This document shows, piece after piece, positions 211-9,318 of a DNA stretch of 9,531 nucleotides. The notes beneath the pieces are model-generated. The model saw only the letters and a list, made by a program, of their open reading frames with translations, was not told the origin of the DNA and did not search any database. The position numbers and the translations under genes are program-made. The first letter of the stretch is position 1. Each line of letters opens with the position of its first letter. The DNA is from Amoebidium appalachense (Eukaryota; Protista; Ichthyosporea), in assembly GCA_963693365.1 (NCBI GenBank), contig CAVNZM010000095.1, positions 1-9,531 of the forward strand. The letters are read 5' to 3'.

Positions 211-231
211 CCCCCCCCCCCCCCCCCCCCC
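211..231. repeat. poly-C homopolymer (C21)
   Basis: Read directly from the sequence. Confidence 0.95.
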
Positions 232-283: not shown

Positions 284-2776
284 GTTGTAATCAGGGCGCG
301 AGCGAGTATTATATTCGCTCGCATTTATCCATCCACCCAAGCGAATATAATATTCGCTCGGATCCTGATGATCTAACCCCAAGCGAATATAATATTCGCT
401 CGAATCCTGATGATCTAACCCCAAGAGAATATAATATTCGCTCCGATCGATCCGAGCGATTATTATATTCGCGCGGATCTTGATTATCTAACCAATCGAT
501 CCAAGCGAATATTATATTCGCTTGGGGGTTGTAATCATGGTGCGAGCGAATGTTACATTCGCTCGCATCCTGATGATCCCACCCCCAAGCGAATATAATA
601 TTCTCTCGAATCCTGATGATCCAACCCCCAAGCGAATATAATATTCGCTCGGATCCTGATGATCCCACCCCCAAGCGAATATAATATTCGCTCCGATCGA
701 TCCGGGCGAATATTATATTCGCGCGGATCTTGATTATCTAACCAATCGATCCAAGCGAATATTATATTCGCTTGGGGGTTGTAATCATGGTGCGAGCGAA
801 TGTTATATTCGCTCGCATCCTGATGATCCCACCCCCAAGCGAATATAATATTCGCTCGCATCCTGATGATCCCACCCCCAAGCGAATATAATATTCGCTC
901 GCATCCTGATGATCCCACCCCCAAGCGAATATAATATTCGCTCGGATCCTGATGATCCCACCCCCAAGCGAATATAATATTCGCTCCGATCGATTCGGGC
1001 GAATATTATATTCGCGCGGATCTTGATTATCTAACCAATCGATCCAAGCGAATATTATATTCGCTTGGGGGTTGTAATCATGGTGCGAGCGAATGTTATA
1101 TTCGCTCGCATCCTGATGATCCCACCCCCAAGCGAATATAATATTCGCTCGCATCCTGATGATCCCACCCCCAAGCGAATATAATATTCGCTCGCATCCT
1201 GATGACCCCACCCCCAAGCGAATATAATATTCGCTCGCATCCTGATGATCCCACCCCCAAGCGAATATAATATTCGCTCGCATCCTGATGATCCCACCCC
1301 CCAAGCGAATATAATATTCGCTCGGATCCTGATGATCTAACCCCAAGCGAATATAATATTCGCTCGAATCCTGATGATCTAACCCCAAGCGAATGTAATA
1401 TATGCTCCGATCGATCCGAGCGAATACTATATTCGCGCGGATCTTGATTATCTAACCAATCGATACAAGCGAAAATTATATTCGCTTGGGGGTTGTAATC
1501 ATGGTGCGAGCGAATGGTATATTCGCTCGCATCCTGATGATCCCACCCCCAAGCGAATATAATATTCGCTCGCATCCTGATGATCCCACCCCCAAGCGAA
1601 TATAATATTCGCTCGCATCCTGATGATCCCACCCCCAAGCGAATATAATATTCGCTCGGATCCTGATGATCCCACCCCCAAGCGAATATAATATTCGCTC
1701 CGATCGATCCGGGCGAATATTATATTCGCGTGGATCTTGATTATCTAACCAATCGATCCAAGCGAATATTATATTCGCTTGGGGGTTGTAATCATGGTGC
1801 GAGCGAATGTTATATTCGCTCGCATCCTGATGATCCCACCCCCAAGCGAATATAATATTCGCTCGCATCCTGATGATCCCACCCCCAAGCGAATATAATA
1901 TTCGCTCGCATCCTGATGATCCCACCCCCAAGCGAATATAATATTCGCTCGGATCCTGATGATCTAACCCCAAGCGAATATAATATTCGCTCGCATCCTG
2001 ATGATCCCACCCCCAAGCGAATATAATATTCGCTCGCATCCTGATGATCCCACCCCCAAGCGAATATAATATTCGCTCGGATCCTGATGATCTAACCCCA
2101 AGCGAATATAATATTCGCTCGAATCCTGATGATCTAACCCCAAGCGAATGTAATATATGCGCCGATCGATCCGAGCGAATATTATATTCGCGCGGATCTT
2201 GATTATCTAACCAATCGATACAAGCGAAAATTATATTCGCTTGGGGGTTGTAATCATGGTGCGAGCGAATGGTATATTCGCTCGCATCCTGATGATCCCA
2301 CCCCCAAGCGAATATAATATTCGCTCGCATCCTGATGATCCCACCCCCATGCGAATATAATATTCGCTCGCATCCTGATGATCCCACCCCCAAGCGAATA
2401 TAATACTCGCTCGGATCCTGATGATCTAACCCCAAGCGAATATAATATTCGCTCGAATCCTGATGATCTAACCCCAAGCGAATGTAATATTCGCTCCGAT
2501 CGATCTGGGCGAAATATTATATTCGCGCGGATCTTGATTATCTAACCAATCGATCCAAGCAAATATTATATTCGCTTGGGGGTTGTAATCAGGGTGCGAG
2601 CGAATGTTATATTCGCTCGCACCTATCCATCCCCCCAAGCAAATATATTATTCACTCGGATCCTGATGATCCAACGCCCAAGCGAATATACTATTCGCTT
2701 GAATCCTGATGATCCAACCCCCATAATAATAATATAATATTATATTCGCTCGCATCCTAACTATGCATCCGCCGGG

Positions 2777-2998: not shown

Positions 2999-3404
2999 AA
3001 GCGCATATCATATTCGTCCCATCCTCAAGCGCATATTATATTCGCTTGACGCATGCCATGCTCCTGCCATCCTGAAGCGCATATTATATTCGCTTGACGC
3101 ATGCCATTGGTCATGCCATCCTGAAGCGCATATTATATTCGCTTGACGCCACCTATGTATGCTCATGCCATCCTGAAGCGCATATTAAATTCGCTTGACG
3201 CATGCCATGCTCATGCCATCCTGAAGCGCATATTAAATTCGCTTGACGCATGCCATTGGTCATGCCATCCTGAAGCGCATATTAAATTCGCTTGACGCCA
3301 CCTATTTATGCTCATGCCATCCTGAAGCGCATATTATATTCGCTTGCCGCATGCCATGCTCATGCCATCCTGAAGCGCATATTATATTCGCTTGACGCCA
3401 CCTA
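2999..3404. repeat. Minisatellite array B, left part (48-52-bp monomers)
   Basis: Monomer GCCATCCTGAAGCGCATATTATATTCGCTTGACGCATGCCAT(GCTC/TGGTC)AT. GAAGCGC starts at 3074, 3123, 3175, 3223, 3272, 3324 and 3372 (spacings 49/52/48, repeating as a 149-bp trimer). Confidence 0.93.
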
Positions 3405-3693
3405 TGTTGGAAGATGGTATCGTTATCCAGTCCGATCGCATGAATCAGATCATGATCGGCTGGTGGCCTGCGAGATCTTAACCGATCTCGTAGCTCAGTT
3501 GGTAGAGCACTCGACCGGAGATAGAGGGGTCGCGGGTTCAAATCCCGTCGGGATCATCTTTTTCTCATCCTCTTCTCGCTGGGGTAAAAGCCAGCACGCC
3601 TTTACTGGCGTCATCACAACCATCGGCAGTGGTTAGGTTGTGATCTCAAGGCTAGCAAGATCGCTAGTCTCTGCACCATGACAAAATCCAAAA
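3405..3693 (+). repeat. 5' LTR (289 bp)
   Basis: Differs from the 3' LTR by 3 substitutions (3409/3779, 3447/3817, 3679/4047) and one 2-bp indel (GG 3501-3502), by eye. Confidence 0.92.
3484..3556 (+). tRNA. tRNA-like gene inside the 5' LTR (anticodon GGA, short variable loop; probably a tRNA-derived Pol III promoter rather than a decoding tRNA-Ser)
   Basis: Acceptor stem GATCTCG/CGGGATC plus discriminator A. D arm GCTC-AGTTGGTA-GAGC (A box). Anticodon arm CTCGA-CCGGAGA-TAGAG (one G.A mismatch, C at position 33). Variable loop GGGTC. T arm GCGGG-TTCAAAT-CCCGT (B box). 73 nt, followed by T5 at 3559-3563. Confidence 0.8.
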
Positions 3694-3701
3694 TGGTAGC
3701 A
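3694..3701 (+). promoter_or_regulatory. Primer-binding site TGGTAGCA (likely initiator tRNA-Met)
   Basis: Directly follows the 5' LTR. Complementary to a tRNA 3' end ...UGCUACCA; U72-A73-CCA is typical of eukaryotic initiator tRNA-Met. Confidence 0.7.
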
Positions 3702-3765
3702 TGAACAGAGGTTCAGTGGGGACTGAGGGGGCAGTCCACCCTAAACTGATTCTGCGATTCGTCCT

Positions 3766-3774
3766 GAGTGGGGA
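3766..3774 (+). promoter_or_regulatory. Polypurine tract GAGTGGGGA
   Basis: Purine-rich tract abutting the TG start of the 3' LTR. Confidence 0.75.
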
Positions 3775-4061
3775 TGTTTGAAGATGGTATCGTTATCCAG
3801 TCCGATCGCATGAATCGGATCATGATCGGCTGGTGGCCTGCGAGATCTTAACCGATCTCGTAGCTCAGTTTAGAGCACTCGACCGGAGATAGAGGGGTCG
3901 CGGGTTCAAATCCCGTCGGGATCATCTTTTTCTCATCCTCTTCTCGCTGGGGTAAAAGCCAGCACGCCTTTACTGGCGTCATCACAACCATCGGCAGTGG
4001 TTAGGTTGTGATCTCAAGGCTAGCAAGATCGCTAGTCTCTGCACCAGGACAAAATCCAAAA
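3775..4061 (+). repeat. 3' LTR (287 bp)
   Basis: Near-identical copy of 3405-3693, followed directly by the TSD ACCTA. Confidence 0.92.
3854..3924 (+). pseudogene. tRNA-like copy in the 3' LTR lacking the D-loop GG
   Basis: Identical to 3484-3556 except TAGCTCAGTT--TAGAGC, i.e. the invariant G18G19 of the A box is deleted. Confidence 0.75.
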
Positions 4062-4376
4062 ACCTATGCACGTGCCATCCTGAAGCGCATATTATATTCG
4101 CTTGACGCATGCCATGCTCATGCCATCCCGAAGCGCATATTAAATTCGCTTGACGCATGCCATTGGTCATGCCATCCTGAAGCGCATATTATATTCGCTT
4201 GACGCATGCCATTGGTCATGCCATCCTGAAGCGCATATTAAATTCGCTTGACGCATGCCATTGGTCAAGCCATCCTCGCGCGCATGTTATATTCGCTTGA
4301 CGCATGCCACTGGTCATGCCATCCTGAAGTGCAGTTTATATTCGCTTGACGTTGCTATGCACGTGCCATCCTGATG
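4062..4376. repeat. Minisatellite array B, right part (degenerating rightwards)
   Basis: Further GCCATCCTGAAGCGCATATT(AT/AA)ATTCGCTTGACGCAT copies after the TRIM. Confidence 0.9.
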
Positions 4377-4505: not shown

Positions 4506-4806
4506 GGATTGTCTTCCATAATCCCGACGGAAACGACTTGTTCGTGAATGCCCTGGGTAACGTCAACTTTGGATACATTGGTGCCTTGGTTGCCATGAAG
4601 GTGGTTGACGGCCCTGGTTTTGGAGTTAAGTTCAAAAATACTGCCCACGAAGACTATGTCAAGCAAGAGGTGGCTGTGTTGGCATGGCTTCGCGATAGGG
4701 CGTATGCCCTTTTTTTCGACAACAGATCGGCCAAATCAGCTATTCGCCGGAAGTGCAGCAAAGGCTTCCATTTCCAATGCCAAGAAGGCGCTGTCTTCTA
4801 TTCAGG
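4506..4806 (+). CDS. Integrase exon 1: Ginger/GIN-type N-terminal region
   Basis: VLAWLRDRAYA...KSAIRRKCSKGFHFQCQEGAVFYSG resembles the YL..G.YP...K..IRR.A..F....G.LYY pattern preceding the zinc finger in Ginger/GIN integrases. Ends at donor GG|GTATGT. Start uncertain. Confidence 0.65.
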
Positions 4807-4873
4807 GTATGTGTATGTCTTTGTGTGATATACATGTACACTTAAAATTCGATTCTAATGGTCCGTTCTCCAG
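4807..4873 (+). other. Intron 1 (67 nt, phase 2)
   Basis: GTATGT...CTAAT...TTCTCCAG. Splicing joins ORF 4439 to ORF 4605 exactly in frame (..VFYSG/SDRRRL..). Confidence 0.8.
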
Positions 4874-5173
4874 GTCAGACCGTCGACGGCTCACGAAATC
4901 ATTGGGAAAGAAGTCGCCACCTCGCCGTGTCCTGTTTTTTTCCGACTCACAGGTCATGGAACGCCTTGCGGAGTGTCATACCGGCGGGGGTTTGGGGCAT
5001 GTTGGACGGGATGCGATGATGGCGGACTTCCATCGCAAGTACTTTGTGTTTTGCAACGCAAAGACGCTAGTGTCCGCCTACATTAGTCGGTGCTTCTCGT
5101 GCACCGCGCACTCCACAACCCTGGGCCCAACAACCAGAAAAGTGATCGTGGCTATGATCTGCCTGGACATATT
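4874..5173 (+). CDS. Integrase exon 2: H2C2 zinc-binding domain
   Basis: ERLAECHTGGGLGHVGRDAMMADFHRKYF...YISRCFSC, with His at 4977 and 4998 and Cys at 5091 and 5100. Ends at donor TT|GTAAGT. Confidence 0.88.
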
Positions 5174-5464
5174 GTAAGTCTGTCATTGATACCATCACCT
5201 AATTTTCGTCTTGTCATAGCACGGTTTTAGATCACACATGCATGCTTGTGTGAAACGCATATGTACTCAATGTTTTATCCGTATGATTCCGTGCTCAGGC
5301 CATGCCTCAAGCCATTATTAGATTCCCTTGACCCTTGCCGTGCTCATGCCATCCTGAAGGGAATACTATATTCCCTTGCCGCTTGTTCCCTTGCCACTTG
5401 CTCCCTTATGCTTCTTTGATACCAAATTGAGACCCACTTGGCTCTTCTGACTGTTTCATGTCAG
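5174..5464 (+). other. Intron 2 (291 nt; phase mismatch, contains degenerate B repeats)
   Basis: Consensus donor GTAAGT; acceptor CTGAC...TTTCATGTCAG. Donor is phase 2 but acceptor is phase 0 (see findings). Confidence 0.6.
5299..5385. repeat. Two degenerate array-B monomers in intron 2
   Basis: GCTCATGCCATCCTGAAGGGAATACTATATTCCCTTGCCGC aligns to the B monomer GCTCATGCCATCCTGAAGCGCATATTATATTCGCTTGACGC. Confidence 0.8.
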
Positions 5465-6273
5465 GTGGTAATGGATTTTTCTTCATTGGGCAAAGAGGCT
5501 ACCATGAAAGACCCCGTTACTGGCTTCACCAAGATGAGCCTTGCGACAGACCACCTTTCAAAGTTCACTGTGGGGATTCCCACTGCATCCGAGGACTCCA
5601 ACACCGCCATCCGAACTTTGCAGGCCATGATGAAGGTGACCCCGGTTAGGGAGGTTTGGGTTGACGGCGGTGGTGCTTATGTCAGCAACGAATTTCGCGC
5701 GTTTTGCGATGAGAACAACATTGATTTCGTTCCGGCAACGCCGTACCACCCTCAAACTAAGGGCGTAGTGGAGCGTATCCATCGAACCATCAGGAAACTG
5801 TTGGCATCCGCGATGCTGGCAGGCAGGGATGTCAAGGAGGGGTACACTCTTCCTGGGCGACTGTTTGATCAGGTGTTGCATCAATATAACACAAAGTATC
5901 ATTCGGTTCTGAAGGCGACCCCATTCGAGGTTATGATGGGTCGTGAATCAGGTTCTGTCCGCGCCATGGGCAGGGATCAGTATAACCGTCTACTGGCGGA
6001 GATGAGACGGAATATCATTCGGAGCGGTTCCAGATTCCACAAGGATACCACGGTCAAGCTACCAGAATTGTCCGTCGGTGATTACGTTATCGTCAACACC
6101 GGTGTGAGGGATCGCATCAAGGCGCGTAGTACCCTCAGACCGGTGTGGGGGGCATATGGTGAGGTGAAGGCACAGAGATCTCCATTCACATACACGGTGG
6201 AGATTCTGGCCTCAAAGGCCAAACATCCGGGTTCCACCATCGTTGCTGGATCCACGACGGTCTTCCACATCAG
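5465..6273 (+). CDS. Integrase exon 3: rve catalytic core (DD35E) plus GPY/F / SH3-like C-terminal region
   Basis: VVMDF (D 5474), LATDHLSKF, VWVDGG (D 5663), PYHPQTKGVVER (E 5771, exactly 35 residues between D and E), YNTKYHSVLKATPFEVMMGR, LSVGDYV, LRPVWGAYGEV, VFHIR. Confidence 0.95.
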
Positions 6274-6399
6274 GTAATGTTTCAGGCCTGGCCTTGAATG
6301 TGCGTCTGTTATTATGGCAGGATCATCTTTTTTGCTTTGCCGTATAGTATATTGGTACATACTGTCAACAGCATAGTTCACTGATGGGATTTTATGCAG
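6274..6399 (+). other. Intron 3 (126 nt, phase 2)
   Basis: CAG|GTAATG...CTGAT...TTTTATGCAG|A. Splicing gives VFHIR-DIKLV (typical VFHxxxLK motif) in frame with ORF 6440. Confidence 0.85.
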
Positions 6400-7492
6400 A
6401 GACATCAAGCTGGTTCCATCCAGCTTCAGACCCGACGACATGGAGCGGTACCTCTTCCATACAATCGGCGACCCGACATATGTTGTTGATTGCGTATTCG
6501 GTCGTAGAACCATTGTAGATGACAAAGGGGACTTGTACGACCAGGTTTTAGTTAAATGGCGTGGATTTCCCTTTTCCCAATGTACTTGGGAGGATCCTGG
6601 TGAAGTTATGCCCCCCAACACAGGGGCACCCACTTGCGATGAACAAGATGTGGATGGCAACGACATTCCATTAGCATTACGTGGTCTGAAAGATTTCAGT
6701 AGCTACACGGATGCCAAAATGGAAACGGTCCTTCGTACACTGGATGCCAATGGCGGGTTGGACGACACGGACTTTGCAAATGGCAGTGTTCCAGTTGCCA
6801 CCATGTTTACCACTGTGACATCCAATCAACGTAAGCCCGTGCGACCATCAAAACCGACATTGTCGCATCCGGCAGGTACACCAGTGCGCTCTGAGCCAGA
6901 ACACAACACAGGGTCGTCGGATCCAGCTTCGCCAATTTCGTCGTCGGGTTTTACCAGTGCAGGTGACGGCGCCCCGTCACAAGTACCACCTTCTTCGGCA
7001 ATGGCACAACCGCCCCGTAACCGTGCCAAGGTGACACTGGAGCCCGAGGTAACTGACTTAACGTTGTATACACCCGAAGTGGACCCACCAGTGTCGCCGG
7101 TCCCATCAACTAATGATTGCAACCCTTGCCCCACTGTGCCCATCCCCGTCTCTCTCCGGTCAAAATGGCCCGGGAATGTCAGTGAGTCTGTGTTTACACA
7201 CTACTGCAACAGCGCAGACCCAGTTTATGACGTCACCCCCGTGCCGATGGATGCTAGAGTCTCATTCAACAGCAACGCCACCTTTAGTTTCCGTCCAAGA
7301 TTTTCATGGGAAATGAATTTCTGTTTCATCATCACCGTATTGGACGGATTAAACTGTGGGCTGATAAAATCCAACGTGCCACCTTTACATCTTAAGCCAA
7401 CCGGACTGGACGTTTGGGACCGGATGATTGCTGCCTTAATTATAAAGCACCGCGAGAAGCATACAGCAAATATCCGGGCCATCGCTCATTGA
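6400..7492 (+). CDS. Integrase exon 4, part 1: chromodomain, Pro/Ser/Thr-rich linker, USP-like Cys box
   Basis: Chromodomain 6479-6607 YVVDCVFGRR...VLVKWRGFPFSQCTWEDPGEV; low-complexity linker; SWEMNFCFIITVLDGL (Cys 7322-7324). Ends at TGA 7490-7492. Confidence 0.85.
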
Positions 7493-8248
7493 CTGGCACG
7501 GGTGTGGAAGGTAACACCATACAGGATTGGGGACATAAGTTCAACGGGCAAGTTGTTTGACGCGCTTCAATGTGACATTAGCGGTTCGGATTACCTCACG
7601 GGTGTCCCGCTGGATGGGTCTAGTCGTCCGCTATTCCGAGACAACGTGGTACCCCCTCACGTGACAATCATAACCGCTACATGCGTTAAATGCACTGGCG
7701 TGTGTACGCGTGTGTTGTGTTCCATCGATGCCGAGCTTCGCACCCGACGTCGCCGTGAAAGGATAGACCACAAGGAGACTTACATTGTCAATCCCATAGA
7801 AAACATAGCGGGTACCCACTTCTTCGATGGCGACTGCACTGAATATGGCAGGGAATTTCAAAGCCCAACCTCGGTTTGCACAACGTGCAATTCCAAGGGT
7901 ACGGTGCGGGGCAACGTTTTAATACTTCCTAGAATTCTCTTCGTCCACATGTCAGTGCAATCCGTGCCGCCTGTTCATGTCATGAATTGCGTAAACTTTA
8001 TGGGGCGCCAATACCATCTTGCCTACATTGGTCTTCACAAACCAGGTCACTTTTTCGGTGTGGCACCCGCATTCACATGGAAAAACGGGAGACCATATCA
8101 TCTCCACTGCGACGGTTTTGGTATGACCACGGAAAACCAGACACTGAGCTATGGGAGAGCACTGACACGGGACCTACCAATGTCTCTGTCCAAATGTCTC
8201 GGGAAGGTGGCGAGTGCGAAGGCTGGTGCCCATTATATGTTAAGTTGA
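7493..8248 (+). CDS. Exon 4, part 2 (same frame after the TGA): USP/peptidase C19-like finger and His box
   Basis: Same frame as ORF 6440. TCVKC...VCTTC zinc-ribbon pairs, ILPRILFVHM (cf. LPxVLxIHL), GRQYHLAYIGLHKPGHFFG (His 8048), HCDG (Asp 8111). Confidence 0.72.
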   Translation: MARVWKVTPYRIGDISSTGKLFDALQCDISGSDYLTGVPLDGSSRPLFRDNVVPPHVTIITATCVKCTGVCTRVLCSIDAELRTRRRRERIDHKETYIVNPIENIAGTHFFDGDCTEYGREFQSPTSVCTTCNSKGTVRGNVLILPRILFVHMSVQSVPPVHVMNCVNFMGRQYHLAYIGLHKPGHFFGVAPAFTWKNGRPYHLHCDGFGMTTENQTLSYGRALTRDLPMSLSKCLGKVASAKAGAHYMLS

Positions 8249-8384
8249 ATTGGGCACGCATCAAGGATGTGCATCTCAACTTCATGGTGTATGTGCCCGC
8301 GCAGGAACCACTGTTAGGCGTGGGCTCCCGCAAACTGACGTATGCTAAGTCAACTGTGGATGTAGTGTAGACGACGATATCGGA

Positions 8385-8396
8385 TTTTTTTTTATT

Positions 8397-8440
<44 letters not shown>

Positions 8441-8459
8441 CTTTTTTGTTTTTTTTTTT
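8385..8459. repeat. Low-complexity T-tract / G34 / T-tract
   Basis: Poly-T 8385-8406, poly-G 8407-8440, T-rich 8442-8459. Confidence 0.93.
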
Positions 8460-8991
8460 GCTGCCAACATGCCATTATCGTTTGAACTGGAATTTGAAGG
8501 ACATAATGCCTGCTCGTATTTAAATACACAATGAGTGTGCTGGTTGCATGCTGTCTGGATTTATTTCACGTAGGTGTATAAGTATAAGATCAAGATTGAA
8601 AATTATGCATAGAAGATATTTACGAATATAACATTGAATTGGCTGCTGTGTATGGTCCTTCAACGTAGTGACAACTAAAACATGCAAAATATATATGCTG
8701 ACCGCCGGCGGCGGGGTTTTATTCCATGTGAGCGGTACTTAGTCTATGTGAACCCAATTTAACATTGTGACGTAAGAATGATTAAGAATACAAGATGATT
8801 ACGACTATATTTAATAATGGTGTAATATGGATTCTGTAACGTGTAAATGCAATGGCGATAAATACATACAAACCACATGATACTACACCATTTGCAATGA
8901 GTTGGTAAAATCCTGCTGTCAGTGGCCATGATTTCTTTTCGACCAACACACAAAGCTACAAGCTCAGGACACTTTAATGATTATACCACAA

Positions 8992-9024
8992 CCCCCCCCC
9001 CCCCCCCCCCCTGGTCCCCCCCCC
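8992..9024. repeat. Poly-C low-complexity tract
   Basis: C run from 8992, then TGGT and a second C run. Confidence 0.9.
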
Positions 9025-9189
9025 GAACACATCATTTGCACCAAGAGCATAAAAAACTGGTAACAGTAGACATGATTTTTTCCCCAACACATGTCATAAG
9101 CTAATAGGCACGACAATGATTGTTTATTACGCACACACAGTTTCTCCCACCACGTCATACAAACCCACTGACCCCCCCCATGTCACCCA

Positions 9190-9249
9190 GGGTAGTAGGG
9201 GGGAGGGGGGTAGGGGGGAGGGGGGGAGGGGGGGAGGAGGGGGGGGGGG
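9190..9249 (+). repeat. G-rich tract (G-quadruplex-capable)
   Basis: Multiple runs of 4 or more G separated by A or TA. Confidence 0.8.
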
Positions 9250-9318
9250 TGCATTTTGGCCTGCCCGATATTCCCCCTAGACCAGCCAAATTTGACGTCC
9301 TGGATTTTAATTAGAGGT

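What the first reader, a model, noticed from the sequence alone, without database searches (positions are those of the whole stretch)
3400..4066. Complete miniature LTR retrotransposon whose LTRs each carry a tRNA gene
Seen: TSD ACCTA, 289-bp LTR, PBS, 81-bp internal region, PPT, 287-bp LTR, TSD ACCTA, with a full cloverleaf at LTR positions 80-152. The LTRs differ at only four sites, so the insertion is fairly recent. Established: Cassandra TRIMs carry 5S-derived Pol III promoters in their LTRs; from memory, a tRNA-bearing TRIM group called Helenus has been described, with 5-bp TSDs in fungi and plants. Inference: a rare Pol III-driven SINE/LTR hybrid parasite, possibly a new family or host lineage. 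A tRNA scanner would report it only as two tRNA (pseudo)genes.
Basis: partly seen in the sequence, partly recalled or inferred. Interest (0 to 1): 0.78.

Follow-up and report, generated by a model that had tools for sequence, protein, structure and literature searches.

The report
tRNA-bearing miniature retrotransposon, Helenus type
This is a real, young, many-copy jumping element with no genes of its own that carries a tRNA-like sequence in each terminal repeat, likely as its promoter; it is a previously uncatalogued family of a type (Helenus) described in 2024, not a new kind of element.

Summary
The anatomy is exactly as reported: ACCTA duplications, 289- and 287-bp LTRs (three substitutions, one 2-bp indel), an 81-bp interior with PBS and short PPT, and a tRNA cloverleaf in each LTR. 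It is not a local duplication: 250 and 233 contigs of two DNA runs lie on it, interior depth is roughly 20-55 times the neighbouring gene's, and three contigs leave the LTR ends into other flanks. It meets the structural definition of Helenus (Kojima 2024); none of 12 short probes occurs in that paper's consensus file, so it is likely a new family. The host is an unidentified eukaryote. Likely cycle: Pol III starts at the tRNA, partly reads through a T5 stop, and a Copia-type partner copies the ~450-nt RNA. Distinctive: LTR ends TG...AA, and a 10-bp hairpin that would mask the acceptor stem of the 3' tRNA copy (38 of 20,000 shuffles). No ribozyme found. The scan has noted this element type on other DNA (71 notes, at least 19 genomes), never this sequence. 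Verdict: new member of a known kind.

The parts
3400..3404 (+). 5' target-site duplication ACCTA
   Evidence: sibling satellite units at 3115 and 3264 hold ACCTA once
3405..3693 (+). 5' LTR, 289 bp, ends TGTTGGA...TCCAAAA (6 of 7 inverted match)
   Evidence: a contig of run X13 ends at 3693 with one other letter, and other flanks join at 3402, 3404, 3691
3468..3493 (+). 10-bp hairpin (one G-U) pairing the end of U3 with tRNA positions 1-10; its copy in the 3' LTR lies at 3838-3863
   Evidence: pair probability 1.0 when U3 is present; 38 of 20,000 shuffles reach 10 bp
3484..3556 (+). tRNA-like sequence with intact A box (TAGCTCAGTTGG) and B box (GGTTCAAATCC); anticodon GGA, C at 33, short variable loop; likely Pol III promoter and R region
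3559..3563 (+). T5 run, predicted leaky Pol III terminator
   Evidence: the only plus-strand runs of 4 or more T in the element are this one and 3927-3931
3564..3693 (+). long U5-like part with four hairpins
   Evidence: 3557-3693 folds at z -3.94, 1 of 200 shuffles as stable
3694..3701 (+). primer-binding site TGGTAGCA, directly abutting the LTR, initiator-Met type
   Evidence: [quoted passage not shown]
3694..3774 (+). non-coding interior, 81 bp
   Evidence: longest ATG frame in the whole element 47 aa
3765..3774 (+). short polypurine tract TGAGTGGGGA
   Evidence: 8 of 10 purines
3775..4061 (+). 3' LTR, 287 bp
3854..3924 (+). second tRNA-like copy, A-box GG missing
3927..3931 (+). second T5 run, predicted end of the genomic RNA
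4062..4066 (+). 3' target-site duplication ACCTA
3019..4351 (.). host site: 48-52-bp minisatellite array split by the insertion (3019-3398 and 4073-4351)

Best explanation
This is a 657-bp non-coding, multi-copy LTR retrotransposon in miniature with a tRNA-like sequence in each LTR, which is likely transcribed by RNA polymerase III from that sequence and likely copied and inserted by the enzymes of an autonomous Copia-type element. Shown: anatomy, target duplication, many copies, other flanks, no coding frame. Inferred cycle: Pol III would start near 3484; the T5 at 3559 would stop many transcripts (an ~80-nt tRNA-like RNA) and let some through to the second T5, giving an ~450-nt RNA with the tRNA-like sequence as the repeat (R) at both ends; host initiator tRNA-Met would prime at the PBS, the PPT would prime the second strand, and a blunt-ended cDNA would be inserted with a 5-bp duplication. 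Predicted extra: in that RNA the 10-bp U3 hairpin masks the 5' acceptor strand of the 3' tRNA copy, which would keep RNase P from cutting off the 3' R, and frees its 3' strand to clasp the 5' end of the RNA.
For: Anatomy. Copy number and dispersal: 250 (X1) and 233 (X2) contigs on 406 bases against 110 and 135 on 4021 bases of the neighbour; depth at interior position 3709 is 955 and 8071 against 34-46 and 146-271 on long single contigs of the neighbour's integrase half (about 21-28 and 30-55 fold; contig depth is only a rough guide); 3 of the 12 loose ends shown (6 more hidden) leave the LTR ends into other flanks. Promoter boxes fit Kojima's Helenus pattern (TRGCY, YGG, GGTTC) while the anticodon arm is aberrant (C33; U33 in 97 of 103 control tRNAs). 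No TATA box or AATAAA/ATTAAA on either strand. T5 is the minimal yeast terminator, T6-7 being usual (PMC3141230, passages). One 335-nt contig of a run guessed to be RNA bridges the first T5, the LTR-PBS and the PPT-LTR junctions (X18). Copia partner: 5-bp duplication plus iMet-type PBS is the combination Kojima ties to Copia in fungi; a PBS abutting the LTR without spacer is the Ty1 arrangement (recalled). Hairpin: 38 of 20,000 shuffles; clasp probability 0.86 for a start at 3484.
Against: No transcript start or end was measured; Helenus Pol III transcription is itself unvalidated. T5 allowed no read-through with human Pol III in vitro. X18 is only guessed to be RNA and contigs show neither strand nor level. 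The partner was not found; no genome is held. Only 8 PBS bases fit the iMet type and the host tRNA was not seen. Other flanks were seen one side at a time, so their target duplications are untested. Loss of the cloverleaf on extending the RNA is not special: shuffled trailers do the same (102-125 of 200 as low) and 136 of 200 shuffled leaders fall below 0.05. The clasp drops to 0.36 for a start 4 bases earlier. The hairpin test was chosen after seeing it, the LTR is rich in the palindrome GATC (8 in 289 bp), and conservation could not be tested.
Confidence: 0.6

Rival explanations
1. An ordinary TRIM transcribed by Pol II (own LTR promoter or read-in from neighbours); the tRNA or SINE piece is a passenger that at most gives short Pol III RNAs.
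For: A T5 sits 3 bases behind the tRNA and is a full stop for human Pol III. A separate locus in X1 and X2 begins matching exactly at tRNA position 1 (loose end at 3484), as a source tRNA gene or SINE would. Multi-unit read-through transcripts are reported for Cassandra (PMC7215508, passages).
Against: No TATA or polyadenylation signal; both promoter boxes are intact in the family while the anticodon arm has decayed; the same layout recurs across about 230 Helenus families.
Confidence: 0.22
2. The tRNA fold is a processing signal: RNase P (or a ribozyme) cuts longer transcripts in both LTRs to a 370-nt unit that is copied like a retrozyme, perhaps as a circle.
For: Acceptor, D and T arms are intact; U5 is strongly structured; contigs of X13 and X18 run through the whole 370-nt unit.
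Against: No ribozyme family in Rfam up to E 10, no hammerhead, twister-loop, pistol or HDV core by loose recalled patterns on the plus strand; with U3 attached the acceptor stem is predicted closed off; the wrap-around joint is what two LTRs give anyway.
Confidence: 0.1
3. The element spreads a working tRNA-Ser gene.
For: ARAGORN calls tRNA-Ser(GGA); 57 bits in Rfam.
Against: C33, a G-A mismatch in the anticodon stem, no long variable arm, which serine tRNAs need, and an anticodon that eukaryotes hardly use (the last two points recalled).
Confidence: 0.04
4. A local tandem duplication of a tRNA pseudogene segment inside an unstable satellite.
For: It lies in a minisatellite array and ACCTA belongs to the satellite unit.
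Against: PBS, PPT, inverted ends and duplication in register; hundreds of variant contigs, high depth and other flanks.
Confidence: 0.02

Closest known systems
Helenus (TRIMp3), Kojima 2024, PMC10886601 (read: main text parts 1-4 of 6; supplement parts 1, 5, 7, 9, 10, 11 of 11; five motif searches of the whole supplement)
   Same: Two LTRs each with a tRNA-like A/B-box module, short interior with PBS and PPT, no coding frame, 657 bp within 311-1263 bp, aberrant anticodon arm, short T run behind the tRNA (by eye in the consensus file). 5-bp duplication and TGGTAGCA start as in fungal iMet-primed families.
   Different: 0 of 12 probes of 10-12 bases occur in the consensus file (the search works; 70-letter line breaks can hide single probes). 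137 bases follow the tRNA, whereas most consensus LTRs that I read end a few tens of bases behind it. LTR ends in AA. The acceptor stem is fully paired. Host not shown to be among the listed ones.
Oyster Helenus families Helenus-1_SaGl, -2_SaGl, -2C_CGi
   Same: Same 19-base A-box stretch and, by eye, 18, 19 and 17 of 25 identical bases between the boxes, against at most 15 of 25 among 103 distinct control tRNAs from viral contigs with the same box and spacing; a fourth family with that box, -2_TeGr, gives 15.
   Different: No likeness seen outside the tRNA; 4-bp duplications, His-type PBS, LTRs of 123-129 bp. The three are related, were picked from about 230 families, and the control is prokaryotic, so a shared source tRNA type or chance is not excluded.
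Cassandra and Ajax (5S-derived TRIMs)
   Same: Small-RNA promoter inside the LTR; Cassandra is described as starting in the 5' copy and ending in the 3' copy.
   Different: Here the module is tRNA-like; no 5S match.
Retrozymes (hammerhead-bearing non-autonomous LTR elements; seen as search listing only, PMC5680766)
   Same: Short, non-coding, structured LTRs, PBS and PPT.
   Different: No ribozyme detected.

Membership tests
Helenus (TRIMp3) | Two LTRs around a short non-coding interior, total under about 1.3 kb | tested here: met
   657 bp; longest ATG frame 47 aa
Helenus (TRIMp3) | tRNA-derived sequence in the LTR with box A (TRGCY, YGG) and box B (GGTTC) | tested here: met
   against the pattern; the 3' copy lacks the GG
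Helenus (TRIMp3) | PBS behind the 5' LTR complementary to a host tRNA | tested here: inconclusive
   TGGTAGCA equals the start of fungal iMet-type interiors; host tRNA not available; not complementary to the element's own tRNA end
Helenus (TRIMp3) | PPT before the 3' LTR | tested here: met
   8 of 10 purines, short
Helenus (TRIMp3) | 4-6-bp target-site duplication | tested here: met
   ACCTA both sides, once in sibling satellite units; one insertion only
Helenus (TRIMp3) | Interspersed multi-copy family | tested here: met
   250 and 233 contigs, depth ratio about 20-55, three other flanks
Helenus (TRIMp3) | Transcription by RNA polymerase III | not testable with these tools
   only contigs, no raw RNA reads; unvalidated for Helenus generally
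Any catalogued Helenus family | Sequence identity to a published consensus | tested here: not met
   0 of 12 probes; Repbase and Dfam could not be searched. Helenus is a structural, probably multi-origin group, so this bears on the family, not the type
Cassandra / Ajax | 5S rRNA-derived sequence in the LTR | tested here: not met
   no 5S match up to E 10
Retrozyme | Self-cleaving ribozyme in each LTR | tested here: not met
   an unknown ribozyme class would be missed
Canonical LTR retrotransposon ends | TG...CA termini | tested here: not met
   TG...AA in both LTRs, unchanged in read contigs at the 5' LTR end; some Helenus consensus LTRs end in TA
Copia-mobilised TRIM | Autonomous partner sharing PBS, PPT or ends | not testable with these tools
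   no genome held

The most novel reading that the evidence does not exclude
A Helenus-type element in a eukaryote outside fungi, animals and land plants, active now, that solves the tRNA-in-an-LTR problem by RNA structure: a leaky T5 sets its output, a U3 hairpin hides the 3' tRNA copy from RNase P, and the two half acceptor stems clasp both ends of the genomic RNA into one tRNA-like domain that aids strand transfer; Copia integrase accepts its TG...AA ends.
Probability: 0.12. Interest if true: 0.65.

Novelty: new member of a known kind. Interest (0 to 1): 0.38.

Why it matters
Pol III-driven LTR elements other than Cassandra rest on sequence inference alone. A young, high-copy, near-uniform family with an intact cloverleaf, one T5 per LTR and a possible RNA holder is a good test case for where such elements start and stop, and for how their RNA escapes the tRNA-processing nucleases, a question that the Helenus paper does not raise (no mention of RNase P or hairpins). 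If the host lies outside the published groups it widens the range of the type. It also warns that tRNA scans of this genome will count many false tRNA-Ser genes.

Tried and rejected
No whole genome, so no genome-wide BLAST, paired duplications, empty sites or partner search. Host identity: three word-index protein searches with parts of the neighbouring gene found nothing; the full HMMER search gave one close relative without a name (P0001, 61%) and, among the next nine looked up, arachnid and frog retroelement proteins at 26-29%; the Atlas gave no answer; viral contigs held no relative. Exact LTR probes found nothing in metagenome or viral contigs; a relaxed tRNA-head pattern found nothing in viral or prokaryote genome contigs and one metagenome locus, L001, without B box, tRNA or LTR, rejected. 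No RNA holder is on record as RNA. In X18 the neighbouring gene has cover in 3 of 30 bins and in X13 in 12 of 30, and no contig covered this copy's own 5' flank: lack of cover is not used as evidence. Self-priming rejected: the tRNA-like 3' end does not match the PBS beyond TGGT, longest complement in the LTR 5 bases. Read-through-triggered unfolding of the 5' cloverleaf looked sharp but is matched by shuffles: rejected as evidence. Ribozyme search negative. No terminal inverted repeats between the window ends. Interior-LTR pairing not notable (7 bp Watson-Crick). Literature: searches found no Helenus host beyond Kojima 2024; two later papers only cite it (passages); subscription journals and Repbase Reports are not covered. 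Four of the 24 listed runs were laid.

Full report
Observation. Every coordinate of the finding holds: ACCTA at 3400-3404, a 289-bp LTR at 3405-3693, an 81-bp interior, a 287-bp LTR at 3775-4061, ACCTA at 4062-4066. The LTRs differ by three substitutions (1.05%) and one 2-bp indel. ARAGORN and Rfam both call a tRNA in each LTR (3484-3556, 57.4 bits; 3854-3924, 50.8 bits). The element sits in a 48-52-bp minisatellite; two sibling units carry ACCTA once at the equivalent place, which is what the site should look like before insertion. The LTRs begin TGTTGGA and end TCCAAAA, a 6-of-7 inverted repeat with AA where CA is usual.

Is it a mobile family? No genome is held, so I laid contigs of four of 24 listed public runs on one LTR plus interior and on the neighbouring gene. 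In X1 and X2, 250 and 233 contigs lie on 406 bases of the element, against 110 and 135 on 4021 bases of the neighbour. Depth at interior position 3709 is 955 and 8071; long single contigs on the integrase half of the neighbour have 34-46 and 146-271, a ratio of about 21-28 and 30-55. The tool warns that contig depth is no copy number, and the neighbour may itself be repeated, so read this as tens of copies or more; LTR depth is higher still. Of 12 loose ends shown (6 hidden), three leave the LTR ends into flanks unlike this one (3402 in X1; 3404 and 3691 in X2). They show one side each, so their duplications are untested. The family is very uniform: the listed substitutions are five places. 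At 3679 almost all contig depth has the 3' LTR's letter, and the other three LTR differences are not listed as variants of the 5' LTR, so all four look private to this copy (mutation after insertion or assembly error; contigs drop rare variants). The insertion is young; no clock is available.

The tRNA-like part. Box A and box B are intact in the 5' LTR and fit the Helenus pattern. The anticodon arm is not that of a working tRNA: C at 33 (U in 97 of 103 distinct control tRNAs), a G-A mismatch, and a serine anticodon GGA without the long variable arm (serine rule and rarity of GGA recalled). It does not serve as primer: its end does not match the PBS beyond TGGT. The only plus-strand T runs of four or more are the T5 behind each tRNA; there is no TATA box or polyadenylation signal. 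T5 is the minimal terminator in yeast and a tight one for human Pol III in vitro (PMC3141230, passages), so read-through is plausible but not given. In X18, a run only guessed to be RNA, one 335-nt contig bridges the first T5, the LTR-PBS and the PPT-LTR junctions; contigs show no strand, start, end or level.

Mechanism. Most likely Pol III starts near 3484, often stops at 3559-3563 and sometimes runs to 3927-3931, giving an RNA of about 450 nt whose terminal repeat is the tRNA-like sequence, as described for the 5S part of Cassandra. The PBS starts with the same eight letters as fungal Helenus interiors of the kind that Kojima assigns to the 3' end of initiator tRNA-Met and to Copia partners with 5-bp duplications; it abuts the LTR with no spacer, as in Ty1 (recalled). 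All of this is inferred. Such an RNA has a problem: its 3' tRNA copy looks like a pre-tRNA with a leader. The last bases of U3 form a 10-bp hairpin with tRNA positions 1-10 (3468-3493; pair probability 1.0), reached by 38 of 20,000 shuffles. In the predicted 3484-3931 fold the freed 3' strand pairs with the 5' end of the RNA (0.86; 0.36 for a start at 3480). Against over-reading: mere loss of the cloverleaf happens with shuffled leaders and trailers too, the test was chosen after the fact, GATC palindromes are frequent here, and the folding model ignores tRNA tertiary structure. By eye, short hairpins overlapping the first tRNA bases recur in bivalve, nemertean, coelacanth and wasp Helenus consensus sequences; I did not count them. 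No ribozyme was found.

Comparison. Helenus (PMC10886601; main text parts 1-4 of 6 and supplement parts 1, 5, 7, 9, 10, 11 of 11 read) is defined as TRIMs with tRNA-derived sequence in the LTRs, 311-1263 bp, in rust and agaric fungi, six animal phyla and Selaginella. This element meets each structural feature that could be tested. None of 12 probes occurs in the consensus file (5 of 6 shorter or generic control words do), so it is not a listed family; Repbase and Dfam were out of reach. Its tRNA middle resembles three related oyster families (17-19 of 25 by eye, against at most 15 of 25 in 103 controls), with no likeness seen elsewhere: a lead, not a relationship. Searches showed no later host records; two citing papers add none (passages).

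Host. A eukaryote: the neighbouring gene has candidate GT-AG introns, with a branch-site-like motif 18-25 bases before the 3' end in 4 of 4 (introns inferred, not shown by RNA), a pattern more typical of fungi and several unicellular groups than of animals (recalled). The best DNA holders total about 140-205 million letters of contigs. Protein searches gave no named close relative. A new host lineage is therefore possible but not shown.

Verdict. Observation confirmed, interpretation supported, novelty limited to a new family of a type described in 2024. The scan's own unchecked notes list this type in at least 19 other genomes, diatoms included, none with this sequence. Interest 0.38.

Noticed in passing
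window 4506-8370: Intron-containing integrase gene (H2C2 zinc finger, rve core, chromodomain by Pfam) with a long unknown C-terminal part and no reverse transcriptase in view: Ginger-like DNA transposon or domesticated integrase (label recalled). This copy looks broken (frame break near 5155-5173, stop at 7490-7492, frame break near 8132). One unnamed relative at 61%, the rest under 41%. The part beyond about 7060 has 3-8 times the depth of the 5' half.
   Followed up: partly
window 300-2723, 3019-3398, 4073-4351, 5281-5410: A 42-43-bp satellite with 293/334-bp higher-order repeats and a palindromic core, then a 48-52-bp satellite sharing that core; a decayed copy lies in an intron of the integrase gene. 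Possibly subterminal or intronic repeats of the host transposon.
   Followed up: no
window 3484 (runs X1 and X2): The same contig flank joins exactly at tRNA position 1 in two runs: candidate donor tRNA gene, SINE, or retroposed copy of the short RNA.
   Followed up: no
window 3731 (run X2, contig 24): A contig leaves the interior into sequence that looks by eye like the 5' part of another tRNA: possible insertion or variant with a second tRNA-like piece.
   Followed up: no
window 3674 (run X13): A branch of depth 271 (unit 672) leaves the LTR 19 bases before its end: a subfamily or a nested high-copy form.
   Followed up: no
window 3559-3563 (run X1): Contigs with one or two T fewer (depth 581 and 167 of 6313), absent in X2: weaker terminators in some copies, or homopolymer errors.
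   Followed up: no
window 3640-3677: TGATCTCAAG followed by a CTAGC-loop-GCTAG hairpin and CTGCA recurs in the same order in fish Helenus LTRs (6 hits of the 10-mer; the five shown all in that lineage), there upstream of the tRNA; similar CTAG hairpins occur in bivalve and nemertean families. Possible packaging or dimer signal; chance not excluded.
   Followed up: partly
window 211-231, 2779-2836, 8383-8460, 8992-9025, 9190-9250: Long poly-C, poly-G and (AT)n runs.
   Followed up: no
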